From: Mytilus edulis
Taxonomy: Eukaryota
Direction of reading: 5' to 3'
NCBI RefSeq assembly: GCF_963676685.1
Contig: NC_092344.1
Span: 45,446,001-45,510,000 of the forward strand
Length of the DNA: 64,000 nt
The position numbers and the translations under genes were made by a program. Positions 22,201-53,110 of the stretch are shown here, piece after piece. The notes beneath the pieces are model-generated. The model was not told the origin of the DNA. It was given only the letters and a program-made list of their open reading frames with translations, and made no database searches. Each line of letters opens with the position of its first letter. Within the stretch, counting starts at the first letter, position 1.

Positions 22201-25200
22201 TATAAATAACCTTCAGTTATTTTTGTTTCACGACCTTTCGTTTAATTTGATTTGTAGGTATTCCAGCGAAGGATGAATGGTAAAATCAATTTCTTTAGAA
22301 AATGGGAATCGTATAAAACTGGATTTGGAAATTTGAATGGAGAACATTGGTTAGGTAATAACAATATTGCAAAATAATTTTGCTTTTTTGAATGTTCAAT
22401 ATTTTTTTCTTCCTCTTTCATCACTCACCAAAGAATTTGATAAAATATCAAGTCTTACAATACATAATAAATTAAGATAATTTCACCGAAGTCTGTTTAA
22501 TTTCTTTCATTTACGATACGAAGGTTTGAAAAATATAGCTGTACCTTAAGAATTCGTATTACTAACAGGATAGCATATATTTTTTGACGGTAATGTTGTT
22601 AATAGATGTAGAGCTCGGCAATTAAGAAACGATCCATTTACACTTATTTGTTCTTTACATAAATAGATTTTTAGGGAATAGGGATACTATTTGATTAAAC
22701 ATTATAGTAAGATATTTGAAATTTTTGAGTTTTGTCAGTGGGTGTAAGACGACATCTTTATCCAAAATTGGAGGTTAACTAGATTGATATTATTTTTCCA
22801 TCTATTAAGCTCTTAAAAGCTTATACTAATGTGTGGTGTTTGTTTTGCTCGGCTCTGAAAGGCACATTTTTAGTATCTTTGGTGGAAAATTGTCTTATTT
22901 GTAATAATATTCCTTATTCTAATTCAATTTTATTTTTCAAGCTAATTTGATTAAAACACCTTATTTCATTCCAATCTTTTAAAACCTTGAATTTACAGTG
23001 AAAAATGAATTATTTTACAGGAAATGAACACTTGCATAAGCTGACTTCACACGGAAAGTACTCGCTTCGGATAGACATGTCAGACTTCAAAAACAACCAC
23101 AGACATGCTGTATATAACAAATTCTTTGTTGGAAGTGAAAGCGCAGGATATAAATTAGACGTCACTGGCTACTCGGGTGATGCAGGTGAGATAAACCTAT
23201 CAAATTGAATATTAATACTACTAAAACACAAACTCTAGACTTTGACCGTTCTTCCGTTTCGTTCCGTCTAACAAGTATATTCCTTCAGGGAATTTTTCAG
23301 TCCAACAAGTATATTCCGTCACGGATTTGTTCAGTATTACAGGACAGAATGACTTCATATTTGACGAACAGCTTGGCAGTTGCGAAAGTTCTGGTAAAAC
23401 ACATGTGCAAGTGCCTGTGGTTATCTCTTTGTTCTTGAGAATTCGGTCTTGATGACATATTTTTTATAGTCGCAGTTAATCGCGTTTAAAACTTTTAAAG
23501 TGTTGGTGATTAAACGCTTGGTCTAGTGTATAAACACTTGTATTTTGTTAAAATTTGTAGATACTATTTAAAAAAAACCTTTAAAATATTTGAATCATTT
23601 GTCTCTCTCTATGGCGTTCACGTCATATATCCTTTTATCCACGAAAAACCCGGTCGTATAACTGTGAGTTAGGGAGGTCGTGTGCCAAATACAAGTCCGA
23701 GTCTGTAGTATTGTTATTTTTTAACATAACAATATCTTTATTGCATATTTGCTGTTACGTCTTAATTATTGGTATTTGCTGCTACTCCGCTATGATAGTT
23801 ATCAAAGGTACCAGGATTATAATTTAATACGCCAGACGCGCGTTTCGTCTACTTAAGACTCATCAGTGACGCTCATGTCAAAATATTTAAAATGCCAAAC
23901 AAATACAAAGTTGAAGAGCATTGAGGACCCAAAAATTCCTAAAAGTTGTGCCAAATACTGCTAAGGTAATCTACTCCTGGGCATAAGTCATTTAAGTACG
24001 AAGTTGAAGAGCATTGAGGATCCAAAATTTCAAAAAGTTGTGCCAAATACGGCTAAGGTAATCTATTCCTGGGATAAAAAAAATCCTTAGTTTTTCGAAA
24101 AAGGAGTAGGTTCAGTAAGACCCCTTTTTGGCCCCAAAATATAGCAGTTTTACAAAATTGTTAAAATGTAAACCTTTAGTTATTTATTGGACAGTAGAAT
24201 GCTTCTGCTACATAAATATGGGCTGTTTTTGACAATACAATGCACATATATCCGGTACTAGCACCATTAAGTCATGCCAAATTACTGAAATCCTCATAAT
24301 TCTAGCATTTTAGTTAAATTTTAGACGGTTTTCGTGTAAAACGAAAGTGGCCGCATTCGTGTTCATCCTTAATATTGAAATGTAAGTTGTATTTTATGAT
24401 AATACATAACATATATAAAGATTGAGGATGAACACGGATGCGGCCACTTTCATTTTTACCAAAAACCATCTGAAAAGTGACATTTTCCGGCATATTAGGT
24501 AGAATTTTCATATTTGAGCTTGAATCGGATCGTTTTTAATGACCAAATCTGTTAAAATCTTTCACATAAACTAATTAATTCAAATAGAATAGACACTTAA
24601 GTGTTTAAAAAGTGGTCAAAATCATTCGTCAGATGAACCTGAAATTTGAGGCCAAAATCGGTCCTTACCGGACCTACTCCTTTAAAGTTTTGTAAACAGG
24701 AAATTTATAAAAAAAAAAAAATACCACATAATTGATATTCATGTAAACACCGAAGTGCTGACTACTGGGCTGGTGATACCCTCGGGGACGAAACGTCCAC
24801 CAGCAGTGGCATCGACCCAGTGGTGTAAATAGTTATCAAAGGTACCAGGATTATAATTTAATACGCCAGACGCGCGTTTCGTCTACATAATGAACGTGAT
24901 ATTAAGAATGAAAATAAAAATAACCTCATTTCTGTGTCAGAATAATGTGTCCACCTTTACGATAACATGTCTTCCTGCAGACTGTTTCCTTTGTTTCAAA
25001 CAAGTTGAAAATCAGGCTAAGATGTTGATCAAGTTCAAAACAGGGTTCATGGCTAATATAACAGTATCGTCTTAATAATCATGTAATATTTGTCACTGGA
25101 AGTTAAACATCATGTGATCTTTATCGTAATCTATTTATCCCGTAGATATAACAATATTATTCAATTTTATATATCAATTTACTAAACCACAGTTGGTATA

Positions 25201-25460
25201 TTAAACTTCTAGGTGATTCTATGGCGGTGCATCAAAATGGAAAGAAATTTACAACGATTGATAAAGATCAAGACGCACATGGCGAAAACTGCGCTAAATA
25301 TTATAAGGGTGGCTGGTGGTATGGCGCCTGTCACCAATGCAACTTGAATGGCCTTTATCTGAAAGGAAGCAGCACGTATGGTGAAGGGATTAACTGGTAT
25401 ACATGGAAGGGTCTTAAATACTCACTAAAGACAACAACTATGATGATTCGAAGATCATAA
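16215..25460 (+). CDS. Fibrinogen-related domain protein (FReD/FREP, ficolin/tachylectin-5-like), gene A, secreted
   Basis: Exons 16215-16302 ([19 protein letters not shown] signal peptide), 16472-16600 and/or its identical copy 18586-18714, 19269-19399 (KRPSDC...[12 protein letters not shown]), 22258-22354 (VFQRR...[12 protein letters not shown]), 23021-23185 (NEHLHKLT...GYSGDAG), 25213-25460 ([15 protein letters not shown]...NCA...[15 protein letters not shown]...MMIRRS*). All phases fit: 285 aa, or 328 aa with both exon-2 copies. AATAAA at 25484. Confidence 0.93.
16700..16910 (+). mobile_element. tRNA-derived SINE (V-SINE-like core)
   Basis: A-box-like tgccgagtggt, B-box-like gttagaatcc, core tactccccgggcactccggcatcctc...aaactgaccgccacgacatag. 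A truncated duplicate lies at ~18815-18890. Confidence 0.65.
18220..18425. repeat. Interspersed repeat family 2
   Basis: aagaagatgtggcatgattgccaatgagacaact...gtcagctataaaaggccc; also at ~12515-12740, 41225-41410, 42230-42585 (rev), 46955-47270, 60678-61008 (rev). Longer copies share the cctgtcccaagtcaggag core with family 1. Confidence 0.8.
20247..22155 (-). mobile_element. 5'-truncated non-LTR retrotransposon (CR1/L2/Crack group), RT pseudogene, in intron 3 of FReD gene A
   Basis: RT motifs [36 protein letters not shown], with stops and frameshifts; C-terminal [15 protein letters not shown]; 3' AATAAA tail. 12-bp TSD GGAAATTAATTT at 20235-20246 and 22156-22167. Confidence 0.9.
23830..23871 (-). 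ncRNA. Type I hammerhead ribozyme (minimal, palindromic helix III), retrozyme/Penelope type
   Basis: Minus strand: CGUCA CUGAUGA GUCU-uaagu-AGAC GAAA C-GCGC-G UC^ UGGCG. Complete core with helix I and II pairing. Confidence 0.9.
24102..24681. mobile_element. Non-autonomous DNA transposon (Kolobok-like MITE) with internal palindrome
   Basis: Imperfect TIRs AGGAGTAGGTTCAGTAAGACC / GGTCCTTACCGGACCTACTCCT followed by TTAA; internal IR ~24337-24370 / 24425-24457; empty site visible in the copy at ~35585. Confidence 0.8.
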
Positions 25461-26649: not shown

Positions 26650-28200
26650 TTCAATGTGGACAATTTAATATAAATACAAGTTTTGAAAGTGACAATGAAT
26701 ATTATCCTAGTAAAAGATTATTTTCAATGTCTAAAGAATCGTCGTTGAAAAATCGGAGAAATTAAGACTTTACTCTGGTGTAGGTAAAAGTTTATTTTCT
26801 TCTTCTGAAGAATCAGATGCAGATGTCCCTGATGTAAACATCAATGATGTAGAATTTGTGCCTGACATTTGTTGGTGACCTTAGAAATAATAATATTGAA
26901 AATATTATAGATGGTGGTGAAAATGTTAATACGAGATCTAATAAAAACGAGGTAAATATAAAACTTTGAATTTATTTGGATTAGAAAAAATTCTAACAGA
27001 TGATGAACTATAGAATTTTGTTAAAATTCAGGTTTATTGCCTAAAACTGTAAAATGTGATCAATGTGGAGATACTCTAAGTTAAGTATACAAAATTATTC
27101 GTAGTGGAAGAAAAAGACAACAGTTTAGATTCCAGTATAATAAAAGAAAGTGTAAACGGACAAAAAAATCCATATTCCTTTGCGTAAAAATACATGGTTT
27201 GAAAATGCATTTATGATTCTTTACGTAAAAGCTTATTACTTGTATACTGTTTTGTTCACAAATTTCCATATTATTTAGCTATCGGCGAAACTTCTATTTT
27301 TTCACAACTGACTCAGACAACGAAGTACAAAGTAATTTGAAAAAAAGAAAATTAGAAAGTTCAAAAGAAACTGTAAATGACTATTTAAATTATTGTCGAG
27401 AAATTTGTTGCTATGTAGTTGACAATATCAAGCCACAGAAAATTGGAGGACCCAGTTTAATGGTTGAAATAGATGAAGCTAAATTTGGAAAAAGAAAGTA
27501 CAATAGAGGGAGAGTTGTGGACAGAAATTGGGTTCTAGGTGGAATTTGTAGAAAGACCAAAGAAATGTTTCTTATGAAAGTGGAAAAGAGAGATAAAGAT
27601 ACTCTAATTCCAATCATAGAACAACATGTTGAAAAGGGAAGTACAATAATAACTGAATGTTGGGCGTCTTATAAATGTTTAGGAAAACTAGGATATCAAC
27701 ACCAAACAGTTAACCACTCTGAAAACTTTGTTGATCCAACTAGTGGTGCATGCACTAACTTAAGTTGAGAATAGGTGGTGGTGCATCAAACGACAACTGC
27801 CAACCACACATACAAGATCTAAAACTTTTGATAAACATTTGATGGAATATATGTGGAGAACATTATATTCGGATAAAACATCACTTTTTGACAGTTTCAT
27901 TCAGGACATGTGTAAAGTTGTAAAGTTCGTTGATTTGAGATCAATTATTGCACAATATAAATGAATTAATAATAAATTATAGTTCTAATTTTGTTTCATT
28001 TTTTCATATTAAATGTTATGACACATATACCTGTTCCAAGAAGTGACGCCCCCTATATCTGTTTGACACCCCCATTTTTCTTAAATCTTACTTAATACCT
28101 TGAAAAATAAATATACTAGTATTATTGTTGCACATTAAATATATATCAATTTAATTATATTTTTACAAAGTTTTGGGTGGGGTAGCCATATGGAACTCTT
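26650..28200 (+). mobile_element. Decayed Merlin / IS1595-ISXO2-like DNA transposon (transposase remnant ~27030-27964)
   Basis: ORF 27337-27768: IGGP...VEIDEAKFGKRKYNRGR...WVLGGI...IITECWASY...HQTVNHSENFVDP...CTN, continuing after a frameshift as VENRWWCIKR...HLMEYMWR. Degenerate CxxC upstream. Absent from the paralogous B-C spacer. TIRs not found, so boundaries are approximate. Confidence 0.85.
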
Positions 28201-29514
28201 ACCGGTTTTTTTTTATCTTACCATTCAGGTAGAATTCACTTCGTTTTTGTTGGTATCTGGATTAACCATTGCAGAATTTTTCAAATCAGAAGTTTTCTTT
28301 AAATTTATACAATAATTTGAAATGGTTTGACTTCTTCATCAGTCGATATAAACATTGTCAGGGTATTTTTGTTTACTTTTATCGGACCGATAACACCCCG
28401 TAGACTATGAAACAAAAATTCAGAAAACAAACAAAATTTCAAAGCTTTTGCATTAGTCTCAGCAAAGGTGAATGGTTTCGGAAGTAAAAGTCTCAGAGTA
28501 TATTGAAAAATAATCATTGATCTGTTGATTAAAGTTCCATAACTCTTGTTCAACAATTTTTTTTTCATCGAAAGTGAACTTTCTTTCACACTTTCTCAAT
28601 ACAAGTTTCATGATAATTAATCAAAGCATTTTGTAATTTCTAACGTCAGTTGAACGGACGTACATTGGGACAACGGCAATACTCTACCGTACTTCGTCAT
28701 GAAAGAGGGGTAAACAATACCAGAGGGACATTCAAACTCATAGATCGAAAATAAACTGACAACGCCATAGCTAAAAAGACAAAGACAAAAACAAACAGAC
28801 AAATAATAATAGAACATAAGACATAACTTATAGAAAAAAAAAGACTAAGCAAGACTAAAGACACGAACCCAACAAAAATCAAAGGTTCATCTCAGGTATT
28901 CAGGAAAGGTAAGCAGATCCTGCTCTACATATGGCATCCGTCATGTTGCTCATGCTATATAAACCCGGTAAATATTCCTCAGAAATATTCTAATACGATA
29001 GGTCACATTCGTGAAAAGGGAACGGATTATAGTTACGACATTAGGAACATGTCCGATATTTGTGAAACAGATACTCCATAACGATCAATGTATTTTAAAA
29101 AATATCGAATTAGTTATGGTATTCATCAAGGGTCATATAAAATTACAATACAGCCTCCACACCTTCCTTTACCTTAATAGTTACAGAAGAGTACAAATAG
29201 TTACCATAATACAGTTATTTAAATCGATAATTTTAAGATATACTAGTATATCAGATACCTTGTAAAGTCTTTGTTATAATTTTTCATCGGTTCACCTTGT
29301 AAAGTCTTTATTATTATTTTTCATCGGTTCAAACAAGGTTTAATTGTAGAATGGACATTTACCGTCTTACCTGACTGACTCTTTGTTGTATATAAATTAT
29401 CTCCTTTTGTCCTATGTTGTGCATAGTAGTATACAACAACAAAAAAGCAAGAAGGTGTGGAATATATCTCAACGCGACAAACAATTTAATGACAAAATCA
29501 CTTTTAAATAAGGC

Positions 29515-32500
29515 ATGAGCTACGTATCAATATTCACTAATGCTATTGTTGTAGCACTGATGGCCATGTATATATACGAAAATGAAAGAAGAATGGGGGA
29601 AATGTCAGTCAAGCTAAATCGAACAGGTAATGAGAAGTAAATTAAATCAAGGACAAACAATAATTTGTGAATGTATTCGACCTTCTTTTTTAAATCATGT
29701 TTGAATTTATATAAATAAAGTAAAATAACAAAAATACTGAACTCCATCGAGGAAAATTAAAAACGGAAAGTCTTTAATTTTATCAAAAGACAAAATCAAA
29801 AAACGAATGGAAAACAACAATCATATTTCCTTATGTAGAAAATATTATAGATTAACTATTGCTTTATATTCTTAGTCATGGTCCATATTCAGTTCAATCT
29901 AATAATCGATATGTATACTTCCTCGTTATAAAAAAAGTAATCAGTATTTACCTCGATGAAACGATCCATTCACACTATGCCTTTCATGTCGAGTTTATAC
30001 AAATTAAAAAATCCTGGTTATATTTAGCTGGGACACCCACTAAATATTGGGACTATTATACTAGTATACTAGTCCCAGTATTTAGTGAGTTTTGGCCCCA
30101 GTCACACTGTCACGTTTCAAAAGCTACGTTTTACTACGTTTTGAAAGCGTAGCGAAACGGCAATATACGTAACGAAGCGAATCGAAACGTAGTGATCCTT
30201 TCTTCAAAACGGGACCTGCCCCGTATGTTTTGAAAATTCCACAACAAACGTAGCGAAAATTGAAACGAAGTAGAAACCTATTAAATGCATATCAAAGCCT
30301 AGCGGAACGTAACAAAACGTGCTTACTACGGATCGAAACGTATCAATGCGTGGTTGAAACGTGGGTCTAGACGTACTAATACGTAGCAAAGTGGGATAAG
30401 AACGTAGCACAAACCTAGTAAAATCTAGCTTTCAAAATAACGGCACACTTTTATTCAAAACGTAGTTGAAACGTAGCATTTAATAGTTATCAAAGGTACC
30501 AGGTTATAATTTAGTACGCCAGACGCGCGTTTCGTCTACATAAGACTCATCAGTGACGCTCAAATCAAAAATATTTATAAACCCAAACAAGTACAAAGTT
30601 GAAGAGCATTGAGTATCCAAAATTCTTAAAAACGGAATAAAACGTGACAGTGTGATTGGGGCTTAAAACCTTAAACCAGAGCAAAACTCGCCTTCTAAAG
30701 TGGAGTTATTGTGAGGTTCTTTACGGCTGGTAATCTACAGAAGTAGAACAATCGGTTCTGCAATAAAAATCGTGCTTTCCAGTTACGCTTGAGTGAATTC
30801 ATTGACGCCGCTTCGCAAGGTATGCAGATTTCTGAAATCGCAATATTTAATCAGAATTGATCACAGTTGTTGTGTCGAAAAAAGTCACAAAGTAAAAGAC
30901 TTGAAAAGAATATAACACTTCCCCTCACGCATTCATGATGTCTTCAATCGGAACCGATCCCATTTTGCATCAAATGATTAACATTTACAGTTTTTAGATT
31001 TCTTAAGACGTTTATCAACTTCTGACAGCGTGTAAAATGGTCAGTCAGTCCCATGGACAGAAAAATAAGCGCAACTAGAACTAGCAGGTCCATCTAAAGA
31101 AATATTTCAAAAGTTTAATGTCACATTTTTTTTTTAATTTCTCGTTGGATGATTTATTTTGCAGGAGTATAACTCCATGCACACTAGTAAACAATACATG
31201 TCTTTTAATGAAATCATTAATCACAGATAAGCATTCTTCTATTTGTAATATGTGATCTGTTGGATTATAAAAATTGTAATTTTAGAAATTTACATACCTT
31301 GCGAAGTGGCGACAATGACTCAAATCAAGCATAACTGGAAAACCCTCTCGCGATTTTCATTGCAGAACCGATTGTTCTGTTTTTGTAGATTATCAGGGGT
31401 GAATTAATTTAATGACACCTATTTGCTTACGTTAGAAATAACAAGGCTCAAGCTAGCAGCCACTCTTTCCTTTACTGTTGATAAATATGTCATTATTGTC
31501 GAAGAACACATTTCGAGGTTTCTTTGTAGGTGTAACCGTTCATGGTGAAACAGTAGACAAATTTGTAGAATTACTTTCGAATAGTTGTGGATGCAAACAA
31601 AACAAGGAGTTAGTTAACGATATTGAAGACTTGTATGAAGAGAAAGGACCGTGTAAAGGTAAAATGTATACTTCGTTATATACATTTATCAAATAGAAAT
31701 GAATTTTTACATAAAAAATTATAACGTATTTTGTGACATTTTATTAGTAACACTAGAGTGCAAGTGATATGATACGACAAATACTGGTCAGGAAATTCAT
31801 ATAGGGTTCGAACTTTTCTCTCACCCATAAGAAATATACTGACGTCGTATACATTGTTTTAGGTCACTTGCACTATGTGTAACTAATATGTCACAAAATA
31901 AGATTGTACTGAGGGTAGATATATTACTAATAAGATAGAACAAGTTAACAATGGGAAAACCAATATCGTCATATTTTCAGTACGATTATTTTTTCAAGTT
32001 CACATATGTCAATTTCAAGAAAATGATCCAGGTATTATTTTAAGAGACTTTTCAGTTTATTTCAAGTTCACGTTGATATTTTCAATCCAAGCACTCGTTA
32101 AGACATATGTGAGTTAATGACAGGGCATCAACAATATATATCAACAAGAAAAAGGTAGGACCAATGTCACCTATATTTGTTCAAGCCACATAGTCAAGAT
32201 TAAAGAGTGGTCAAATCTTTTCGGACTTCGAATATTCAAAAGTCTATTTGAAATACTTACAACATTTTTTCACAGTTTACAATTTCCATGAAATCAATAT
32301 GTCATCCAACATTAGATATTGCCGTTGTAAATCGAAATTTGACGAATGTTGTAAAATTTACAGTTTTGCACTATATGTAGACCCATTGGTCACCTCTTTA
32401 TAAATAAGCAACAGCACTGTTAGAATCAAAGAATACAAACATGGAGTTGAAAAACTAGAACATTCAAGTAGAGAATTTCGGAAACAGGTCAGGTGTAAAA

Positions 32501-35500
32501 TGAATTCATAAGAAATTGCCCTACCTCATTTTCCCTTCCTTTTTTTAATTGTTTTTTAAGAGTTGTGCTTCAAATGTAACGCAACGAAGTCGACCAGTAA
32601 GGATGCATAATAAATAGCCCTTGGAATATCCACTGTAAGTTGACAGATTAGTTCTCCAAATATATTACACGAGTTTGGGATTTCGAAATATATTTTCAGA
32701 TGTTGTATTTTTTTTTAAATTGGTATCATGTTTACGAAATGAATGAAATAGGAATTGTTCATAGTCGATATCTGAGTAACACAACTGGTTTTGAAGGCTC
32801 ATCTTTTACTCTAGAAAGGATAGAAATTCTAAAATTATATGAGTCCTAGCTATAGATAAACTCTTCATAGATACCAGGAATAAATTTAGTATATACGCCA
32901 GACGCGCGTTTCGTCTACAAAAGACTCATCAGTGACGCTCGCTCCCAAATAGTTGAAAATGCCAAACAAAGTACGAAGTTGAAGAGCATTGAGGACCAAA
33001 ATTACTAAAAGTTTTGCCAAATAGAAAGACATCTACTTGTGAATTATTTTTATTCTTTCATTGCTGTTAAAATTTATCAATTAACTGATCATTTGCGCTA
33101 TAATCTGCAAATACTAAATACATTTATTATAGTCAAAAGACCATCTGACTGTATGGACTTAGATAAATCTACCTGTAAAAGTGGAATCTACACGATTTAC
33201 CCTGAAAACACGTCCGGTTTCAACGTTTTCTGTGAAATGTGGGAGCATGGTGGGGGCTGGACAGTGAGTATAGATAAAATCAAATATTGCAATTTTTCTT
33301 TATTAATGTATTTTATGTTTTAAACCAAACCGATATGTTTCCGAGTTTAAGAGATATCATACATTTGCTGTATACCATTGTAACAAATAAAAAAGATAAC
33401 AAAAATGATAACAAAATGCCAACAATAACCAAATAATTCAAATAAAAACTAGTACGATATGGACCTCAATTTCACATCATAAAATTAGTAGTTAGAAGAT
33501 TTTTCTTAACAATTGCCAGGTAAATGGTGGTTGTTATCTAATAGTTCGTTTCTGTGTGTGTTGCATTGTCTTTTGTTTTTTTTTGTTCTGTAGTGTTTCT
33601 GTTCTTTTCCTCTTACATGTATTGTTTATGTGTTTCCCTTTGGATTTAGTTAGTAACACGAATTTGTTTTCTCTCAATCGGTTTCATGACTTTTAAACAG
33701 CGGTATACAACTGTTGCATTTATTAGGCACAATAAAATCGCAACACCGAAGTTTGAAAAATAATCGAACATAAAAATTGCACAAACTATTGATCGGATGG
33801 TGTGTCAGGTACAAAATGTGAATGCATTTACCTACAAGTATTCTAAAATGTCATGAAATTATGAAACTATTTAAACTGTTTTATAATGCATGAAAAAAAG
33901 TATTTACAAAAATGTCGAACTTTGAAGTTGATTCCATAAAACGTTATACTGTATCAATCATAGGCACGACTTGACAACAACTGTCATATTCCTGACTTGA
34001 TACAGGCATTTTACGAAGAAAATGATGAGGGTACATGTAAACATGGTTTTATAGTTGGCCAATTCAATAAACAGTTGTTTATAGTGCCTTTATATTTACA
34101 AAATTTGGCGAGCAATGCAAACAGAAATATTAATTAAGGTGGTATCAAGCAGTCTGTTGTTATTTATGTATTATTGTCATTTTGTTTATTTTCTTTGGTT
34201 ACATCTTCTGACATCAGACTCGGACTTCTCTTGAACTGAATTTTAATGTGCGTATTGTTATGCGTTTACTTTTCTACATTGGTTAGAGGTATAGGGGGAG
34301 GGTTGAGATCTCACAAACATGTTTAACCCCGCCGCATTTTTGCGCCTGTCCCAAGTCAGGAGCCTCTGGCCTTTGTTAGTCTTGTATTATTTTAATTTTA
34401 GTTTCTTGTGTTCAATTTGGAAATTAGTATGGCGTTCATTATCACTGGACTAGTATATATTTGTTTAGGGGCCAGCTGAAGGACGCTTTCGGGTGCGGGA
34501 ATTTCTCGCTACATTGAAGACCTGTTGGTGACCCTCTGCTGTTGTTTTTTATTTGGTCGGGTTGTTGTCACTTTGACACATTCCCCATTTCCATTCTCAA
34601 TTTTACCTTGACTTAAATTAATGAGGTTCGTTTAATTTTTATAAAATTTTGAAAAAAAACATTTTACTTTGACCCTTTGATAGATTTTTGTATTTTATAG
34701 TATATACGTTTTATCAAAGGATAATGCCGTACTAGTATACATTATCCCATTAAAGGACACATCTGGTAAAATATAAATGCATGGGGTAATTTACTTGACA
34801 AATGAAAGGGTAAAATGAAATGAGAAGTATATTGGCTTATACTGTGGAAGTTCATAAAATAAGGTACTAATAATATATAATTCATATGAATGCAAACAAA
34901 TTTGTTTTATCAGATTTATCAGTTTTCAGGATAACCCGGAAATTAATTTCAACCAATCTTCTGTAACAGTATAGACAAAATATTATAACCAGTATATTTG
35001 AGATGACGTTGAGATGGTCAATTCAAATATTTCTTATATTTCAGGATTAGTTAAAGCAGTAGCTTAAAAAATAATTTGATGTCCATTCGTTTGATATGTT
35101 TTATCATTTGATTTTGCCATTTGGATTAGGGACTTTCCGTTTTGAATTTTCCTCGGAGTTCAGTATTTTTGTTTATTTTTTACTTGATAAAAAATTAATA
35201 TAAATCTTCACAATTTTAGAAAAGTGTAAAGCAAATTATTACGTTATCCCATGAGGGTGACATGACAATTGAGAATTAGGGATTAGAGAGGTGTTATATA
35301 CAAAAGGGATTTCTTCCTTTTTAAGATAATTTAGGTAATGTCACAAAGAATTGGTATTTGGGAAAACAACTAGTAAGTAGTTATCAAAGGTACCAGGATT
35401 ATAATTTAGTACGCCAGACGCGCGTTTCGTCTACACAAGACTCATCAGTGACGCTCATATTAAAATATTTATTAAGCCAAACAAGTAAAAAGTTGAAAAG

Positions 35501-38500
35501 CATTGAGAATCTAAAATTCCAAAAATGTTGTGCCAAATACGGCTAAGGTAATCTTTGCCTTGGATAAGAAAATCCTTAGTTTTTCGAAAATTCAAAGTTT
35601 TGTAAACAGGAAAGATAAGTAACCAGGTCAGGAATCAGCACTGGCCTTGGGTATACGACATATGGCAAAATTGGGGTACTTTGCTAATTTGCATAGTGGC
35701 CATTTTGCCTTATCATGACGGCAGCCATTACAATAGGATTATAAAAAAATGCCAATATGCCAATTCTTATATCGAATCAACAATTTTCCGCATATAGGTG
35801 AATTGTACATATTTTGAGGATTCTGTCCGTGTACAAATGAACATTGTGTACTTTGAAAACTTTCGGCCTTTCTAGTTTGAAAATCGGAAGCGAAACCGTA
35901 GTAGATCGTAGTATAACTGCTATATAATGCCTAGGTCACACATTCACTGATCACCTCGCCGGATCCGCTACGGATTAAATATCACGGATGATCTCGAAAA
36001 TGCAGTTTCCGTAGTCTGATACGGATCCGATACAGATGTACAACGGTATGACAACGGGTTTTGACGTTACTATCACGGATATTGAAGGACGGAGTTCATT
36101 TTGGCGACATGAGTGATAAGGGTTCTTACGGTAAGATACGGTTAAATACGGAAATGATACGGTATAGTACGCAACGACACGTGTCGTGACGTATGCACTG
36201 CTGATAAACAGCGGTTTGCTACGGTATAAGTAAGTACGAATGAGAACGGTCTTAAACGGAATAGTACGAACGGTCACATTTCTATAATTTACTTGTTATT
36301 TATCATTCCTATATGGCAGTTAATCGTAGATTATTTTTCGTTGTTGTTAAATAAATTATTTATCTGTCTGTATGTACTATAATGTGTTATTCGTAATCCT
36401 CGGACTAACAACATGTAGCAATTCTTGAAACATATTTAGGACTATTCTTTCAAGGTTCTTAAATGTAGCTGATTTTTCCGCACACAATTGAGTCATGAGG
36501 GGCGCAAACTAGCCATGGATAGGGAAATCAATACATAGACCACCATATACTCTGCGTATGTCATCAAGTATCTCGACCCTGCCCTGTCATTTTGTGCCAT
36601 ATCAATATCCAGTTCCAGCCAATTCATTGCAAGCACCAGTTGTTGGTTATTCATGTTGGATAATCATTATGTTTACCACAACGTCAAGAAACCGAATTAG
36701 TAGGACCCTATAGGTATGAAGTATTTATACAGAATCTAGCTTTATGTCAGTTTGTCGTCGTTACAGACGTAATACTGTGGATTCGTTATTATTCGTTGGA
36801 TACAAATATTTGTGGGTTTTATGGGTTTCGTGGGTCTCGTGGGTCTCGTGGGTACAGGTGAACCACGAATTTAAATGTTCAATGAAAAACAATTGTATCC
36901 AGACTTTGGCATAACCACGAAATCAAATATCCACGAAAAGTCAAGGATTTCGCAATGCACGAAAATTGGTAACAACGAAAATAAAAAAAAAATCCACAGT
37001 ATTCCGTATTTTGTCGTGTTGAAACGTAATAAACCGTAATAGACTTTCTGAACTCTGGCTGATACCTAGACTGTTTCTCTGTCCTTTATCTGTTTGGCTT
37101 TGGTACCCGTATGTTGCAAGGGAGAGGACCAGCCTAGGCTGATACCTAGCTATCCGTATTGCAACGTAATAAAATCTTGCCGTTACGTGACACATTCGTA
37201 ACAAATCGTATTGTATCCTTACCAATACGTGGTGTAACCGTACTAGTACGTAGTTCTCCGAAACTAGCCGTAGAAATCATTCTGGTCTACGAATAAGTAC
37301 GGATTAATACGCCGGGTTTTAATAGGGACTACAACGGATTAGTACGGTCTTGCTAAGGATATACAAGTACTACTACGAATACGTATGACTACGGCAACTA
37401 TACGGATATCTACTGACTTATACAGATTGCCACGAATGATGCCGACTTGTATCCTTAGCTAATCTGGCGTCAAATACGTGAATGTGTGACCTAGGCATAA
37501 AATAACGAAAAATGGTGAAAAGGCAATATTCAAAACATAAATAAAGATGCAAGAATATATTGTTCATGATTAGTCCGCATATAGAGAAACATCTTGGAGT
37601 TAAATACCATTTAGCTTACCTGCATTCTTAAGTTTTCGGCCAAATTCTTTTAAAAAGATAATGATTTCAACCTTCTCATTTCGTAAAAAGACAAATTTGA
37701 AGCAAGTTGCCTTAGAGTTTGACAACATTTTTGTAAATATTCGCCTTTTTTCAAGACCACTTTAGTTTTAGATTCATGTCGAAAAAGGGCTGGATTATCC
37801 GCAAATTTTAAAAAATTTATATTTTCAATCTGAAACTAAGCGAGGTAATATAATCAAAATGGCCAAAGACACATGGTGCAAATCATATGAATAAAGTACC
37901 CTTGATTTTGACATATGATAACATTTGTTATAATTGTTTTACCTTTTGTTTAATTTGATTGATAGGTATTCCAGCGCAGGATGAATGGTAAAATTAATTT
38001 CTATAGAGACTGGGAATCGTATAAAAGTGGATTTGGTAATATGAACGAAGAACATTGGTTAGGTAACGATATGGATTGCAAATTATATGATTGTCGCATA
38101 TCACATTTTCTAAACTCTCATTATTTTCCTCTCCCTTTTGATGTTTTCCGTATATCATTTTGATAGATATTTCATATTATTTTTTTTTAATAGAACTAAA
38201 ATCTAATCTCACAATAAATCACATTTCATGATATTAACCTTTGCCGTTATGATATTTTTCATTAGGTATGAAAGGTCGGAAAAATGTTGAAGTGTCTGTA
38301 TAAATCTTATCACAAACAACATAACATACCCAAATTGTTTTAACGGTGTTGTTTTTTAGCAGTGCTAGGATACTATCCATTTAAAACTTATTCGGTAATT
38401 TAACAAACAAGTTCTTTAAGGATATTAACTTGCAATTGTCGTAAGATCTATAAGTAATGAGGTACCTGTAAACAATTGAATATTTTTGTAAAAGAACACA

Positions 38501-40837
38501 ACCAAACATGTGTTATACAATTGCTTTCGAGCTTTTTTACACATAAGCTAGCTCTTACTTAAGCTTCCTTTCGATACTTATATCTGGAATTTATTTCAGT
38601 CCTCTAGCTTGGATAAACATTAATACGTCTTTACTTTTGCAGGCAACGAGAACTTGCATCAGCTGACTTCACAAGGAAAGTACATGCTTCGGATAGACAT
38701 GTCCGACTTCGAAAACAATCACAGACATGCTATATATAGCCAATTCTCTGTGGGTAGCGAACGCCCAGGATATAGTTTAGACGTCACTGGTTACTCGGGG
38801 GATGCAGGTGAGAAAAGCCTCGTATTACTGATCGTATTATATTTATGAATTCAATGTGCATGTAGTTTCAATGCGCTTCATAATACATTGTGCGCAATTT
38901 CAATACTTTTATAAACCTATAAACATTTGTATCTTTATGATTACAGTTACAAGCTAAAACAAGTAATCGCGTATTGAAACACGTTTATGATATATAGCTC
39001 TTCAATGGTTTCAGTACTTATACATCTTCGGATGTTTGGCTTTGAGCGTTCCTGATAAAGGTAAATCCAGAAAAGCGCTTCAGACGCAGGAAATTTTTAA
39101 ACGTGTTTTTTTTCAATTTTTTGATAATGTTTATTTCAAAATATTGGTACACATCGTTATAAGGATTCGAGGACATAATGTTCTGTTATATAAAAGAGGT
39201 TGCCTTAACTTTAATTGCGACATTAAACATAACTTTTAACACCACGTGATGAAATGTTCTAGTATGATTATATGTCATCATGCTATGACACAATTTGTGT
39301 TTTATCAATAACATAAACGGTACCAATCTTAGTGCACTAAATAAACATTTTGACAATACAACGGGAATGTTCGAGGCCAAAATATTTCAAAATCCTAAAT
39401 TTATTTACAAATTTAGTAGCCTATCAAGCAAAACAAAATAAGACAAAAAGTGTAGCCAAATCTGAGAAAAGCATTAGAAGTTTGATAGGAGAAATATATA
39501 ATTCCATAATGTAAATTAAAAAGTGTGTTATTCTTTATCACGTGCGTGAGACATTTTATTTTAAAAACAAACAACAAAAACAACAATGGATTAAAATTAA
39601 TGAATCAGGTTTTCTCGTTTAGAATTTATATGCATTTTCGCCTCTGTTGTACAATCGTCATCATTTTTTGCCTTGTTTGAAGGCCGAATGATATTCTGTG
39701 GATTGTAAGGTCTGTCTTTTACTATTTGATTGATAGCTTCTCTTTGCGAATTTTACATCATCTCCTTACTTTCATTTGAAAAAAAAATTAAACAAACTAA
39801 AAATAGCGGGTTGGGTCTATTAGTGTGCAATAAAGGGAGCTACATCGAACTAATTATGTCGAAATCAAGGGAAAAAATAGTGTAGACAGCAGATGAACTG
39901 TGATAAAAAAAATGCTGGAAATTTTAAATCGGATCGAAAATCGATTGCAATCTGATTTATACCTATCTTTGTATTTTCAGACCGTATTTAAAACCATGTT
40001 TATTACACTATTACGATAAAAGATCCTTTCACTTTATATGTGTAAAACAAAATCGTGTTCGACTTTTTGAAAAATAATCAAATTATAAAAAAGACAAATA
40101 ATAGTTTTGTCAGTAAATGCATCATCATGTGGCTGAAAAGCCTATATACTGTACGACGAACGATAGATTATGTAGAATATAACGGCATGTTATTTTCTAG
40201 ATCATGCTAGTTTAAACCCTATTTTACAACCTGAACATATGACAATTTCCAGAGTTCATAAACAGTGTCAGTGTTGCTAGGTTGTCATATGGTCAAATAG
40301 ATAGTTCAGTGGTGATGTAAATTATGATAGTCTCGGTTAATTTCATCCACTACCGTATATACTTGGCTGAGTAATGAGCTTGATTTTCTAGATACCTGTA
40401 TGTTGCAAGTATAATTAAAAATATAGGTGGTGTTGTTATTTGTGTCAATACAAGGCTCTCTCAATCATGAACGTATACCTCACATTTATCATTTTAGACA
40501 GTATATAGTACAATGTTGTTCAGCTTTATACTAAAATATAATCCATTCTCGCTATTGCTTTGTTAAAAAAGTATATGCTTAATATGTAGGAGATGCTATG
40601 AATACCCATAATGGACACAAATTTACAACGATGGATAAGGATAATGACATGTATACAGATAACTGCGCTGTATTGTATAAAGGTGCATGGTGGTATAATT
40701 CATGTCATCATAGCAACTTAAATGGCCTCTATCTAAAAGGAAGCAACACAACGTATGGTGAAGGTATTAACTGGTATCAATGGCGGAATCAGAAATACTC
40801 ACTAAAGACAACAACTATGATGATCCGCAGAACATAA
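29515..40837 (+). CDS. Fibrinogen-related domain protein (FReD/FREP), gene B
   Basis: Exons 29515-29626 ([37 protein letters not shown]), 31530-31658, 33133-33263, 37966-38062, 38643-38807, 40590-40837. Exons 2-6 have the same lengths and phases as gene A; 293 aa; FBG motifs GGGWTVFQRR, EHWLGNE and [15 protein letters not shown] are intact. Confidence 0.92.
30095..30662. mobile_element. Non-autonomous Harbinger derivative (MITE) in intron 1 of gene B
   Basis: TIRs GCCCCAGTCACACTGTCACGTTT / AAACGTGACAGTGTGATTGGGGC; the first ~100 bp align with the left end of the element at 58507; contains a retrozyme fragment. Confidence 0.85.
30517..30558 (-). ncRNA. Type I hammerhead ribozyme copy
   Basis: Same core; loop II uaugu. 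Confidence 0.9.
30721..31403. mobile_element. MITE/foldback element with ~145-bp diverged terminal inverted repeats
   Basis: 30721-30865 (taatctacagaagtagaacaatcggttctgcaat...cttcgcaaggtatg) is the reverse complement, with mismatches, of ~31251-31403. Confidence 0.75.
32896..32937 (-). ncRNA. Type I hammerhead ribozyme copy (variant flank)
   Basis: Same core; loop II uuugu. The flank (ctcttcatagataccagg) differs from the other copies. Confidence 0.9.
34150..34605 (+). repeat. Family 1 copy, 5'-truncated
   Basis: Same 3' end (ttccattctcaatttta) as the 3646-4266 copy. Confidence 0.85.
35412..35453 (-). ncRNA. Type I hammerhead ribozyme copy
   Basis: Same core; loop II ugugu. Confidence 0.9.
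35928..37497 (-). mobile_element. Internally deleted Harbinger element in intron 3 of gene B
   Basis: 20-bp TIRs TGCCTAGGTCACACATTCAC, TAA TSD on both sides, and a minus-strand transposase relic ~36380-36520 ([35 protein letters not shown]) similar to LLDELRCEDTVSFKNFLRVDPTMFQEIVNRLTPRL of the 59 kb transposase. Confidence 0.88.
36775..36999. mobile_element. Small MITE with TA flanks nested in the Harbinger derivative
   Basis: ta|CTGTGGATT...AATCCACAG|ta, with internal cgtgggt/ccacgaa repeats. Confidence 0.65.
39046..39087 (+). ncRNA. Degenerate minimal hammerhead of a second (Penelope-like) family
   Basis: GCGUUC CUGAUAA AGGUAAAUCCA GAAA AGCGCU UC AGACGC: hammerhead topology with palindromic helix III; the conserved G8 is A. 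Confidence 0.6.
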
Positions 40838-43800: not shown

Positions 43801-44044
43801 TGCATATCGTTGATCATTATGAACTGTTTACAGTCTTTTTTTTTCTTTTGACACACACAAGGTTTAAATGTAGAATGATCGTTTTCTGTGTTTACCGTTT
43901 TACCTGACTGCTTATTGGTTATATGTTTAAATTATCTCCCTCTAATCTGTGTTGTGCCTAATTGTATACAACAACTAAAAACGCACAAAAGTCTATATAT
44001 CAACACCATATTGAGCAGTTTATTGAAGAAATCGCTTGAAAGAT

Positions 44045-47000
44045 ATGAGCTATGTATACGTATTCACCAGTGCTATTGTTGTGGCATTGATGGCCATGTA
44101 CATTTACGAAAATGAAAGAAGAATGGGAGAAATTTTAGCCAAGCTTGATCGAACAGGTAATGAGAAGTAAAATAAATCAAGGACAAACAAAAATTTATAA
44201 ATAAAATTAACTTATTTTTTAGAAATCCTTTTTTTTTTATACAAAATACAATTTGACACGAAACAATCATCTTAGAATTCCACTAAACTATTTGAAAATC
44301 GGTGATAATAAAAATCAAAATACATCTTTACATCTTTTTAATTGTAACTAATTAACTCCATGAAAAACGTCACACAATTCTTTAATGTGCTTTATACAAT
44401 TATTTGACTTAGGCACACATGTTTTCTATTAAAGGACACACATTTTATTTGGTTTTGTGGCGTTGGGTTGCAATCTCAATGTAATGTATACCCTACTGTA
44501 CACTTTTATTTATAGGCTTTCATCGTGTATTTCGCAGCTGCGAATTCAGTTCATAAACATTAACGGTATGCATATATACTTGTGATTCTCTGGGGAAAAA
44601 ACACCGGTAGTTTGGGACAGGACAATTTTGTTTTTACTCCCCTTTATTTCCAAAATATACTGACGAACCTTAATAATACAACACTAGATTATTCTGTTTT
44701 ATTCCCATTTCAAAATAAGCAATTTTTATGAAATATATCTTATTCATTTCGTAATTGTCCGAAAAAAGTTGGAGTTCAAGAGTTAAAATGATGCAATTCG
44801 TGTAACCAACGAAGGCAAAGACTGCCAGCAACCAACGCCAAAATGATTCTGAGAAAGATCACCAATTCTTTTTGGTATGTTTTAAGATCTGTTTTGTACA
44901 TTCTGAGTTTACCTCTGTCTCGTGCATTACAGTGTGTTTTAGCAATAAATTGTTTTAAACTTTAGTGCTTCAAATGTTTTTTTGCAGTCGTTTCTTTGGC
45001 ATTTAAAACAATTTTGGCTTTAATCTGTCTACCATGGCATTCGTCGACTTGATGAAGCCGTAAAAATTACGTTGTGTTGTCACTACATATTGATCTGGTC
45101 ATGAATGGTCATCAACAAATACTGTTTCCCTGTACTGTTGTTGTAAGCAAAATAAAACGTGAAATTGTCTGAAAACTCACGTTAACGTATTTTTGCATGC
45201 AATATTTTTATGGCTTGATTCAGATTTTTATTTTTTAGTCTCGGCAATATGGACTATCAATTCCAAGTTTACTATCCACGGCGGTCACAAAAATATTCAA
45301 AGATAATTGAAATCAATAGAAAAAAAAGAGAATTTGGTAAAGGGGGAGGGCTTAAAAAATGTACTGTCCCAAGTACCTCTGGAAGTGACAACCCGTTCAC
45401 ACTATGCCTGTTTGATTCAAGTTAACCCGAAATAGTAAATCCTGTTTTGAATTTTTTGTCTAATATATATGATAGTCAAAGTAATTCAACTAGCACGAGG
45501 GAACACAGCTTAAAAGGTTCTCCCTGTTTTCATAGTGTAGGAATGTATCCCTGGCTAATTTACTATACAGTTAATTTTGAACCCATACGAAATGATAAAA
45601 GAGATTTAAACCAACCTCCCAATGAACCAACATTAAGTTATAAATTGCATACATGTATGTTTAAAGTTAGATGCGGACCGTAACTCTTGCGGACCGTAAC
45701 TCTTATGTCAATATGATATTTTTTTAATAGGACAAAAACTCTCTGAGTAGTCATTCAATGGTTTTGGTCATGTTGACATTTTCAGAGAAATTGTATTGTG
45801 GATCAGTTTTGCTATTTACTGTATTTTTACCTATCTTGATAGTTTCTGCTAAATATCAATATCTTTTTTCAGACAAACAATATACCTTAACACAATTAGG
45901 AAATCTTCGACAGTTGACCCGAGAATCTTCGCCGCTTGAACTATTAACGTCATACAACCAACACTTTTCCATTGTATCGTCAGATATTTTGTTTTTTTGA
46001 CTGCAAAATCTTACTGGAAGCTTTGCGATGTCCAGTAATGTCGGACAAATAGCAATAATGTGTATTACTTTATAGATACCCAATTACATTTTTTACACTC
46101 TGTAGATATATAAAGGATCAAAATTATAAATGTTCCTCTACTGTATTAGTTGTTAAGTTGCATCTGCAGAAACACAAAATGTGTTAGAGAAGTACATATT
46201 CAGATGTTTTGTATGTTTAAGGATGATCAGTTTGATTTCACTACAATTAAACATGTTAAAGCAGATTTTAAAGTTTGGTAAATACATCACTTTCCATTTA
46301 TGTTTTCAGGAAATACATCTACATGTGCAGACAAAACTACGCCTGTGGGAGGTATATTAACTTTGCATTATATTTCATCTCGAGTCTGCAGGTATGACTT
46401 TCCAATAATAGGGGTCCATTAAAAAAATACCCTTTCTAAAATTATGACTACAGTACGATATAGTCTTGTGTATTAAGTAACTGTAGTTATAAAAAACATC
46501 ATACTATTTTCTAAACAAGAAAATGTATACATAAAGTCAGGAATATGACATTTTTGTTCGTTAGCTGTGTTTGAGCATTTGTTTTTGCCATTTTATGGAG
46601 TTCGGTATCATTTTTTTTATTTGATAACTTTTTCCAATACATTTTTGATTATAGACAATACGAATATTTGCATATATTGATCTTTTTAAAAAGCTTTTGC
46701 TAATTCAACTCAATCCAGTACTTATATGATTTACAGTATCTTATTAATCTGGAACACTATACCCGAAAATAAATAATTTCATTTGCTATATCTATTGCCC
46801 GTTTCTTACAAAGGAGATACACTAGTATTGTAAGGTTTACAATTCGAATTTATCCTTTCAATCATTGGACGGTTTGGCATGCCGAGAGCATGTAGGAGTT
46901 TGACTGTAAAATAAGTTTTATGAGTAGTTTAAGAGATTTCATGATTGAAACTGCGATAAGCCCATACCACATAGTCAGCTATAAAAGGCCCCATAATGAC

Positions 47001-50000
47001 AAAAGTAACACAATTCAAACGGGAAAACTATAAACGGCCTAACTGATGTACTAAAAATGAACAAAAAAACATATAACACAGAAACAAACGACAACCACTG
47101 AATAACAGGATCCTGACTTGGGACAGGCACATACATACTGAATGTGGCGGGGTTAAACATGTAAGCGCGATCCAAACCCTCTCCTAACCTTGGACAGTTG
47201 TGTAACAGTACAACATAGAAACGAACGATACAAATTCACTTGAAAAATATTAAGACTAAACTCATCACATGGATACAATTAGAGTTTTTGGTTACTATAG
47301 TTTATTATAAATCACATCTATATTTTGCTTTGTTTACTCATAATAAAGATGCCATCATTGTTGAAAAACACTTTTAAACTTTTTTTGAAGGTGTGACCTT
47401 TCACGGTGCGACAGCGGACAAAGTTGTAGAATTACTTTCCAATAGATGTGGTTGTAAACAAGACAAGAAGTGCAATAACGACAATGAAGACTCGGATGAA
47501 GAACAAGGACCATGTAAAGGTAACACTTTTAGACTGCAACATATTTAAACATTACAAATACAAATCAAACTTTTACATTTGCATTTGTCACGTACAGTTA
47601 GTCTTTCAATCGAACATCCAGGTTCTATTGTTAAAATGTGTCTGGCTGATTTTCTCCCCAGTTTGATTTACCTGCAATCTCTGTTAACATTTATAATTAA
47701 TACAATACAATTAATGAATGACATTAAATGCATATAGGTTTTTAGGGTGTTTTTTTAATGTTTTGTTCATTTGTGCAATTTTTTGGTATACAAACTCTTG
47801 TAGAATAGCTAATCTGAAATTTTATGTAGAGTTTTTGTCTCACATTCAAACTTTAAAAGGAACATTAGCTAAGAGATAAAAAAAAAATCATTAATGTAAG
47901 TGAAAAAGAGAGATAATAAACCAGTTGGGTTGAGTATTGTCAAAACAAGCAAGTTAATTATTCGACCTCATAAAATCCTTTTTTAAGTGAACTTAAATTG
48001 AACCCTTCAGCTAGAGATGGGTTACGCCTGAACAAGGCGTGTTCAGCAATCAAAAAAACAAGATTGTCAACATTGGAAGATAAAAAGTGGTAAAGCATTT
48101 GGTTGACTGATTCGATCTACAAAATCCCATTCTTATACAGGTAAAAATGATTATTAACATATTTTTCAAACTTATTAATATGAAATCAAACAGACCTAGA
48201 AAAATCCAATTACACGTGTTCGCTATCTATTTATATCTATGTTTATGTTACATCGGGTCGTATGACCGTTGGCAGTTTTCGGAGGTCACCTGGATGGTTA
48301 TTAAAATGGCGTCTAGACTAAAGTTCACACGAAAGGGTGACACATTATAACAAAGTCATGCACTTTTAATTGTTTCTTTTGGACTTTTTGTAATTTGAAT
48401 TTACGTTTTATTAAATTATGAATCAAAGATCATGCCCCTTTAATTTTTATTGATCTCTCCTTGGTTTCGGTTTTGGCTACTCGCTGTAGTTAGGAATTGG
48501 TTTACCTTATGAATTTTTATTAAGACCACCTGTGGTAGCAATACACAGTTAGAAGTTTAGTTACGCATTATGGTCATGGCGAATTCTTTAAATATGAAAG
48601 TTTTTGTACAATACAAGTGATTTTTTAGATAGTTGAAGAATAAAATAGCCTCCCTAGTGGGTTTATATGAACATTTAGATTGTTTTCAGCATAATTTATA
48701 GGCCATTTTTCTGTTTGAAAGTCCGTAAGATTTGAAATGTTTGACGCTCGATCTTTTCAATTCAATTTTATTTTTTACCTCTTTTCAGATACATGTCTAT
48801 GTTTGCAGGAAAAGTATCACTCTAATTGATTGAAATTGTCTTTTTTTGAAAATGCACCAAAAAACGTCACCAACCAAAATGAAATAATGTGTATAGCCGA
48901 GAGACAATACATATAGCTTTGTTTCTAACAGGACATTGGTTCATGTAAATACGCTTCAGTAACGATCAACCAAAAAAAAAAAGTTTGATTGAAAAATAGA
49001 ATTATACAGAATCTACATCGGATTGACAACGCTGGTTAAGTAGACATTATCGCAGTATTTGTGAAGGTAAAAAAATAAATTATATGCTTGCCAATGAGAC
49101 AACTCTCCACAAGATACCAAAATGACACAGAAATTAACAATGCAAATCATGTACTGTTGAAAGAATAATTGTTTAAATTCTAGAAAAATTTGCAGCTGAA
49201 CATCTGAATGGGATTTTTTTTTTATATTTTACTTATGTTTTAATCTATCTATTAAATCGATCCTTCTACAAATACTACATAGTACATAAATTATAGTCAA
49301 GAGACCATCTGACTGTAAGGACTTGGATAGATCTACGTGTAAAAGTGGAATCTATAAGATTTACCCTGAAAAGACTGACAGTTTTAGCGTTTACTGTGAA
49401 ATGGAGAAGCATGGTGGGGGTTGGACAGTGAGTTGAACTCTATCGGAAATAACCAACATTTGTGTTAATATACTAGTATGCCGTTTTGAGCTAAAATTTC
49501 CACACAAATTGAATCAATTGTGAATTTCAATATGATATAGTGCAAATATTAACAACACCTCAATAAGTTTAAATAGAAACAAAACAATAAAAATGAAAAT
49601 AAGGTAAAGAACTTAGTTCGTAGACATGAAATTAGAAGTGGGAATCGGCTGTTAGGAATACTTAGTCCATTGCTACAATCGGAAATACGAAGGAAACACA
49701 CTCGATGAATAAAAATAAGTAAAAGCGTTAAAAACAAGATTAATATTAACAACAACAATAAAACAAAGGAACACAGGCTTAAATTGATGGGTTGCACAGA
49801 TTGTTTCTTAAACAATGGAGAATTGTCTTTACTGAACATTTAATGCGATATATTAAGTTCCAAAGCCTGGAAAAATGTTCAAACAATTTGAAAATACTAT
49901 AGTAGCAGGCGCATAATTTCAGTATTTGTGCTATTCAAGGATATTGATAATGGGTAAAATTGAGAATGGAAATAGGTAATGTGTAAAAGAGAATATAAGA

Positions 50001-53000: not shown

Positions 53001-53110
53001 TAAAAGGAAGCCACAAAATCGACAAGTATGCTTTTAGTGTTGTCTGGTATCAATGGAAGGGTTTCATGTATTCACTGAAGACAACAATCATGATGATCCG
53101 AAGAATATAA
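44045..53110 (+). CDS. Fibrinogen-related domain protein (FReD/FREP), gene C
   Basis: Exons 44045-44156 ([37 protein letters not shown]), possible micro-exon 46310-46351, 47391-47519, 49297-49427, 50627-50723, 51724-51897 (9-nt in-frame insertion), 52863-53110. 296 aa (310 with the micro-exon); FBG motifs intact. Confidence 0.92.
46310..46351 (+). CDS. Putative 42-nt phase 1-1 micro-exon of FReD gene C ([14 protein letters not shown])
   Basis: Pyrimidine-rich acceptor tgttttcag, open frame, donor G|gtatat, length a multiple of 3, phase matching exons 1 and 2. No transcript support is available. Confidence 0.45.
49736..50256. repeat. Two-copy ~260-bp direct tandem duplication in intron 3 of gene C
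   Basis: aacaataaaacaaaggaacacaggc...ttgagaatggaaat occurs twice, nearly identical. Confidence 0.9.
51529..51659. repeat. ~130-bp imperfect palindrome (foldback MITE-like)
   Basis: catagtgtactagtgatgtaatacggtagatattgggtcagt pairs with actgaccccatatataccgtattaggtcactagcacactatg. Confidence 0.8.

What the first reader, a model, noticed from the sequence alone, without database searches (positions are those of the whole stretch)
29515..40837. FReD gene B appears to be a chimera (C-type 5' half, A-type 3' half) with the crossover in exon 3
Seen: B shares with C exon 1, the upstream region, the CGC and GPCK motifs of exon 2, and the start of exon 3 (ccatctgactgta). From mid-exon 3 on it mostly matches A: TSxFxVFCE, the intron 3 start, the intron 3 acceptor (tttaatttgatt..taggta), [25 protein letters not shown]...TTTMMIRR and the 3' UTR. 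The A-B spacer (25460-29515) is homologous to the B-C spacer (40837-44045), e.g. 26250~42700, 26560~43410, 28540~43550. Inference: unequal crossing-over between ancestral A and C duplicated the spacer and joined the C promoter and N-terminus to an A-like recognition domain. Some B residues in exons 4-6 match C, so later divergence or conversion also occurred.
Basis: partly seen in the sequence, partly recalled or inferred. Interest (0 to 1): 0.7.

Follow-up and report, generated by a model that had tools for sequence, protein, structure and literature searches.

The report
Mosaic mussel fibrinogen-lectin gene in array
The middle gene of three neighbouring mussel fibrinogen-domain genes is a patchwork whose front half is joined to a different predicted binding head in a sister species, likely through repeated DNA exchange in a variable gene cluster rather than one crossover between its two neighbours.

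Summary
Three intact six-exon fibrinogen-domain genes (A, B, C) are confirmed. B has a C-like exon 1 and promoter and an A-like 3' flank, and the two spacers are true paralogous copies. The claim 'C 5' half + A 3' half, crossover in exon 3' is only partly supported. With outgroups, 0-1 of 22 B=C residues in exons 2-6 are derived; 7 of 29 B=A residues are, none in exons 3-4. Rooted DNA trees give the same weak topology for both halves. Other Mytilus assemblies hold further array members, and B's exons 4-6 are closest to one of these (84%), not A (76%). The clearest chimera signal is different: the M. galloprovincialis B matches this B at 100 of 100 residues up to mid-exon 3, then differs at 39 of 189 (p 2e-8), including predicted calcium-loop and acetyl-pocket residues. 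The shared 'C-type' exon 1 plus promoter recurs at 26 places in the genome, upstream of fibrinogen, C1q, WSC and C-type lectin exons. Verdict: ordinary birth-and-death mosaicism, with an interesting shared-leader lead. The scan noted similar stalk/head swapping on other DNA of this genome.

The parts
16215..25460 (+). Gene A: exons 16215-16302, 16472-16600, 18586-18714 (second copy of exon 2), 19269-19399, 22258-22354, 23021-23185, 25213-25460; ancestral-type hydrophobic leader
   Evidence: P0001; leader type shared with P0007, P0008, P0009
25461..29514 (.). A-B spacer, paralogous to the B-C spacer (70-88% at anchors)
29330..29715 (+). Leader cassette of B: about 190 bp upstream with conserved motifs and a TATA-like box, 112-nt exon 1 (29515-29626), splice donor
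   Evidence: promoter function inferred
31530..31658 (+). B exon 2 (linker); 43 of 43 residues identical to M. galloprovincialis B
33133..33263 (+). B exon 3; identity to M. galloprovincialis B ends after residue 100; earliest possible place of the head swap
37966..38062 (+). B exon 4; closest to paralogue E (31 of 32)
38643..38807 (+). B exon 5; closest to paralogue F (49 of 55; A 43 of 55)
40590..40837 (+). B exon 6; 5' part closest to E (36 of 43), 3' part closest to F and the M. coruscus A-like gene (34 of 39); holds the predicted calcium loop and acetyl-pocket residues
40838..44044 (.). B-C spacer, with A-like 3' flank to about 41070
43854..44245 (+). Leader cassette of C (exon 1 44045-44156)
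44045..53110 (+). Gene C: exons 44045-44156, 46310-46351 (extra 42-nt exon), 47391-47519, 49297-49427, 50627-50723, 51724-51897, 52863-53110; body closest to paralogue Z
   Evidence: (P0017)

Best explanation
B is an intact fibrinogen-domain gene whose front module (leader, exon 2, start of exon 3) is joined to different fibrinogen heads in different Mytilus assemblies, likely because of repeated unequal crossing-over and gene conversion in a tandem array that has more members in other mussels than the three kept here. Shown: spacer duplication, the sharp fall in identity between the two B forms, different nearest paralogues for successive parts of B's head, and a leader cassette shared by B, C, E, F, G and distant loci. 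Inferred: an old crossover among leader-bearing genes duplicated spacer and leader; conversion tracts later moved pieces of exons 4-6 among A, B, E and F; a more recent exchange between mid-exon 3 and exon 4 gave one B front two heads. Predicted effect: secreted or anchored lectins with the same expression control but different calcium-loop and acetyl-pocket residues.
For: This B versus P0018: 0 of 100 differences over residues 1-100, 39 of 189 after (p 2e-8). The same split in A (edulis/trossulus) and C (edulis/galloprovincialis) gives p 0.80 and 1.0. P0091, from a second assembly, has the same structure as P0018. The window form is not an assembly error: about 99% identical contigs cover parts of its 3' half in 4 of 4 DNA runs from 4 studies. 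Nearest paralogue changes along the head: E, F, E, then F or H. Exons 2-3 group B with E and F (94/94) and reject this B + A (p 0.0007). Five derived residues in exons 5-6 are shared by A and B, each also in F or the M. coruscus gene. Conversion is active here: A's two exon-2 copies differ at 0, 2 and 8 residues in three species. Array membership differs among assemblies.
Against: Comparisons with other assemblies are at protein level only, from predicted gene models, some plainly faulty. P0018 and the window's B could be two tandem paralogues with a converted front, not two forms of one locus. No contig bridges the 5' and 3' halves of B. Holding the three B forms together in exons 4-6 is only barely rejected (p 0.047). 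Most exon 4-6 branches are unstarred. Gene order in other species was not seen. The direction of each exchange is unknown.
Confidence: 0.6

Rival explanations
1. One reading: one unequal crossover between ancestral A and C, in exon 3, made B from a C front and an A head.
For: Both spacers are homologous to each other and not to A's upstream or C's downstream DNA beyond short repeats. The ends of intron 3 and a 51-bp anchor inside it are A-like. MaxChi break in exon 3, p 0.011. Exon 3 has 5 derived BC and 0 derived AB DNA sites; exons 4-6 have 19 AB and 13 BC. Exon 4-6 protein tree has B+A at 87/73 and rejects B+C (p 0.004); the exon 2-3 tree does not reject all B + C (p 0.085).
Against: 0 of 22 (1 of 22 with unlinked outgroups only) B=C residues are derived, and none of the 7 derived B=A residues lies in exons 3-4; 2 lie in exon 2. 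A=C derived sites are the largest class in both halves. Exon 2-3 of C is Z-like (38 of 43 in exon 2), while B groups with E and F. B's head is closer to F, Z and E than to A.
Confidence: 0.15
2. A is the hybrid: a deletion crossover joined a Z-type front (exons 1-3) to the head, 3' flank and spacer of a leader-bearing B/F-type gene, which makes B look half A-like.
For: A groups with Z in exons 1-3 (24 of 29 in exon 1; 81/89) but with F and B in exons 4-6 (87/90). A+B+F is rejected for exons 2-3 (p 0.004). It explains A's B-type 3' flank and spacer equally well.
Against: A+Z is not rejected for exons 4-6 (p 0.10 and 0.13). A keeps the longer exon-6 start shared with Z and C. Compatible with, and not needed by, the best explanation.
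Confidence: 0.25
3. No meaningful recombination inside the coding region: A, B and C split close together in time, and unequal rates plus diversifying selection on the head create the pattern.
For: All three pairwise identities lie within 2-9 points per exon in exons 2-6. DNA trees resolve nothing. Most shared sites are ancestral.
Against: It does not explain a derived leader on otherwise Z-like C, the 0 of 100 versus 39 of 189 split, or the 10-residue identical stretch between B and E in exon 6.
Confidence: 0.12

Closest known systems
Bivalve tandem lectin-like families expanded by unequal crossing-over, e.g. oyster C1qDC (PMC6835236, passages read)
   Same: Tandem paralogues with conserved exon layout; expansion ascribed to unequal crossing-over.
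   Different: The passages read do not describe intragenic mosaics, and 'gene conversion' does not occur in the main text; here one front module carries different heads.
Mytilus gene presence-absence variation (PMC7653742, passages read)
   Same: Array members Z, E, F, G are in other assemblies and absent from the 364 kb examined here.
   Different: That paper treats whole dispensable genes; here half-genes differ. Its supplement was not read.
Myticin C recombination in Mytilus galloprovincialis (PMC3164099, passages read)
   Same: Mosaic immune-gene sequences ascribed to recombination or conversion.
   Different: Partly proposed as somatic and seen in cDNA; the B mosaic is genomic and shared by several individuals.
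Fibrinogen-like recognition domain lectins: tachylectin-5A (1jc9), FIBCD1 (4m7f), ficolins, MFAP4
   Same: PF00147 domain; exon 6 aligns with the calcium loop and the Cys-His and Tyr-Ala pocket motifs (PMC3908420 passages).
   Different: No collagen stalk; short linker; Gly in place of the pocket-floor Ala in A and this B; loop shortened in C, F and the other B form. Binding not tested.

Membership tests
Fibrinogen-related domain (FReD) proteins | C-terminal fibrinogen domain PF00147 | tested here: met
   precomputed for P0001, P0010, P0017; hmmscan of P0017 E 4e-67
Fibrinogen-related domain (FReD) proteins | Secretion signal or anchor at the N-terminus | tested here: inconclusive
   hydrophobic stretch in both leaders by hydropathy only; cleavage not predicted
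Acetyl-binding FReD lectins (TL5A, FIBCD1, ficolin) | Calcium site Asp393/Asp395 equivalents | tested here: met
   present in A and window B by alignment; the second Asp appears missing in C, F and M. galloprovincialis B
Acetyl-binding FReD lectins (TL5A, FIBCD1, ficolin) | S1 pocket Tyr405, Cys414-His415, Tyr431, Ala432, aromatic 443 | tested here: not met
   window B keeps the Tyr, Cys-His and Tyr but has Gly for Ala432 and Gln for Trp443 by alignment; it may still work like one
Acetyl-binding FReD lectins (TL5A, FIBCD1, ficolin) | Binding of acetylated sugars | not testable with these tools
   needs a binding assay
Gastropod FREPs (IgSF + fibrinogen) | N-terminal immunoglobulin domains (definition from abstract start of PMC7588048) | tested here: not met
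   only PF00147 in P0017 and in the precomputed domains of P0001 and P0010
Two-parent chimeric gene from one unequal crossover | Duplicated spacer; 5' flank of the downstream gene, 3' flank of the upstream gene | tested here: met
Two-parent chimeric gene from one unequal crossover | 5' coding part sister to C by derived characters | tested here: not met
   0-1 of 22 B=C residues derived; B groups with E and F in exons 2-3; 8 BC versus 10 AC derived DNA sites
Two-parent chimeric gene from one unequal crossover | 3' coding part sister to A | tested here: inconclusive
   87/73 in protein tree, B+F equally allowed (p 0.48), DNA tree unresolved
Two-parent chimeric gene from one unequal crossover | A two-gene A-C haplotype exists | tested here: inconclusive
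   the listed joints that skip B in 4 DNA runs lie at repeat ends; only 15 of over 10,000 joints were shown

The most novel reading that the evidence does not exclude
Mussels use one portable promoter-plus-leader cassette (about 300 bp) that has been captured by unrelated recognition-domain genes (fibrinogen, C1q, WSC, C-type lectin) on several chromosomes, and in this array the cassette-bearing front module swaps binding heads between haplotypes, giving a germline combinatorial receptor repertoire under shared expression control.
Probability: 0.3. Interest if true: 0.7.

Novelty: new member of a known kind. Interest (0 to 1): 0.4.

Why it matters
Mosaic genes in tandem immune arrays are expected, so the finding as written is ordinary. 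Two points could matter to specialists. First, mussel diversity counted as presence or absence of whole genes may partly be half-gene exchange that changes predicted binding residues while keeping the promoter. Second, a leader and promoter shared by four unrelated domain families would offer a mechanism for the mix-and-match architectures of bivalve recognition proteins and can be tested with existing transcriptomes. I found no paper on this locus or this cassette in searches (listings only; subscription journals are not held).

Tried and rejected
Three-gene identity and MaxChi looked supportive but are unpolarised; most of the signal vanished with outgroups. Reading the joints 26221-26228 to 42544-42559 as a two-gene A-C allele was rejected: many short-sided contigs at very high depth, at repeat ends. 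Raw RNA runs X22 and X23 gave almost no exon cover; this says nothing about expression in other tissues. The Atlas search with C's first 60 residues gave no usable hit by features and only generic helix matches by structure. No domain was found downstream of the leader copies at C11:14.0 Mb and C2:24.8 Mb; the F-box hit 17 kb from the C6 copy is probably unrelated; 135 of 224 candidate frames were scanned, so short exons were missed. PMC13719153 (passages) has no mention of shuffling or WSC. No WSC exons lie in the 364 kb around the array. 11 of 33 aligned proteins were left out of the trees as partial, duplicate or mis-predicted; G and the truncated C_gal were each dropped from one tree. Outgroup exon-2 ends were estimated, not read from splice sites. 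No structure or complex prediction was run, as it would not decide the history.
Full report
Anatomy. The window holds three intact fibrinogen-domain genes on the + strand, A (16215-25460), B (29515-40837) and C (44045-53110), with six homologous exons and GT-AG introns. Stored proteins identical to them are labelled Mytilus edulis. A has a second copy of exon 2 and C an extra 42-nt exon. In 364 kb around the window the only other copy is a broken exon 5-6 fragment, D. RNA contigs of 2 of 4 runs show the exon 3-4 and 4-5 joints; at an 88% threshold these may include paralogues.

B and C share exon 1 and its upstream DNA (88% in the exon against 39% for A). The ends of intron 3 and the 3' flank are more A-like. 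The two spacers are collinear copies at 70-88% identity, and the longest anchor has only one full-length second copy in the genome. So B has the 5' flank of its downstream neighbour and the 3' flank of its upstream neighbour. Any array grown by unequal crossing-over shows this; it does not name the parents or place the crossover.

Inside the coding region the switch is weak. Identities of the three pairs lie within 2-9 points in exons 2-6, and in exon 2 A=C sites (16) match B=C sites (15). An unpolarised MaxChi test still gives a break in exon 3 (p 0.011). With outgroups most of this disappears. Of 22 residues where B=C and A differs, 0 are derived against 11 outgroup rows and 1 against the 7 unlinked rows. 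Of 29 where B=A and C differs, 7 are derived: 2 in exon 2, none in exons 3-4, 5 in exons 5-6. At DNA level with 4-5 outgroup genes of this genome, derived shared sites are AB 2, BC 8, AC 10 in exons 2-3 and AB 19, BC 13, AC 22 in exons 4-6.

The array is larger in other mussels. Searches returned further members, which I call Z (A-type leader), E, F and G (B/C-type leader); consecutive accession numbers and shared contig lengths suggest they are neighbours, but I did not see their DNA. The A-type leader is shared with unlinked outgroups, so the B/C leader is the derived one. Over exons 4-6 this B is 84% identical to F, 76-80% to Z, 78% to E, 76% to A and 70% to C, and its nearest paralogue changes along the head. 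Protein trees of 21 rows (22 of 33 aligned rows used) put B with E and F and A with Z in exons 2-3, and join F, this B and A in exons 4-6 without starred support. A therefore changes place too, and an A-hybrid history fits the spacer equally well; it is not proven either (A+Z not rejected in exons 4-6, p 0.10-0.13).

The clearest chimera signal is between forms of B. M. galloprovincialis P0018 is identical to the window's B over residues 1-100 and differs at 39 of the next 189 (p 2e-8), while A and C show no such split. P0091 from a second assembly has the same build, and P0013 is a third combination. The window's form is common: contigs about 99% identical cover its exon 4-5 region in 3 of 4 DNA runs and intron 5 in 4 of 4, though none bridges intron 3.

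Likely consequence. Exon 6 aligns with the calcium loop and acetyl pocket of FIBCD1 and tachylectin-5A (PMC3908420, passages). The window's B keeps both loop aspartates and has Gly at the pocket floor, as A does; the other B form has a shortened loop and Ala. The derived patch shared by A, B and F lies on this pocket loop. A change in ligand preference is inferred, not tested.

The 'C-type' front is not specific to C. The leader has 26 matches in the genome (27 candidates scored), with conserved upstream motifs and splice donor in 10 aligned copies. Of 8 regions examined downstream, 1 has fibrinogen exons, 2 have C1q exons (3 genes), 1 WSC and 1 C-type lectin exons; P0098 joins the leader to a WSC domain. 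Splicing of these copies to those exons was not shown.

Comparison and verdict. Unequal crossing-over in bivalve lectin-like arrays (PMC6835236), gene presence-absence variation (PMC7653742) and recombinant myticins (PMC3164099) are published; I read passages of each, not the supplements, which may bear on this family. Six searches (listings only) showed nothing on this locus or the cassette. Earlier scan notes describe stalk-head swapping in another cluster of this genome; these are unchecked leads. The finding is a real mosaic of a known kind, with the parents and mechanism misassigned. Interest 0.4, carried mainly by the head swap and the shared leader.

Noticed in passing
window 29330-29715 and 43854-44245; G000 C11:58.23-58.24 Mb, C4:28.56 Mb, C8:65.15 Mb, C8:33.86 Mb, C4:13.44 Mb: The B/C leader has 26 matches in the genome. 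DNA homology extends about 175-205 bp upstream at the C8:65.15, C11:58.24 and C4:13.44 copies (69-71%). Same-strand exons downstream encode C1q (3 places), WSC (1), C-type lectin (1, 15.5 kb away) and fibrinogen (1). Linkage is by position, except stored P0098, which joins the leader to a coiled coil and WSC domain.
   Followed up: partly
window 16339-16782 and 17972-18891: Gene A has a tandem copy of exon 2 and part of exon 1. The exon-2 copies are identical here, and differ at 2 and 8 residues in two sister species; isoforms with one or two copies are on record. Suggests recent conversion.
   Followed up: partly
L042 (G000:C1:45626247-45627434; 128 kb beyond gene C): Fragment D: exons 5-6 only, frameshifted, C-like in exon 5, intron 5 and 3' flank, but with the ancestral state where C has indels in exon 6.
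   Followed up: partly
window 46310-46351: Extra 42-nt exon in C, with counterparts in paralogues E and F; I did not find it in the B model.
   Followed up: partly
window 27229-27768 (+), 59078-59998 (+), 20950-21702 (-): Transposon remnants: ISXO2-like transposase in the A-B spacer, DDE_Tnp_4 nuclease downstream of C, weak reverse transcriptase match in A intron 3. Models P0005 and P0006 appear to fuse A's head to unrelated sequence.
   Followed up: no
P0090, P0012: Paralogue G has the B/C leader and a long repeated coiled coil in place of exon 2; absent from the 364 kb examined.
   Followed up: no
window 11709-12411, 13397-14474, 49719-50253: Tandem repeat arrays and a 264-bp tandem duplication in C intron 3.
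   Followed up: no
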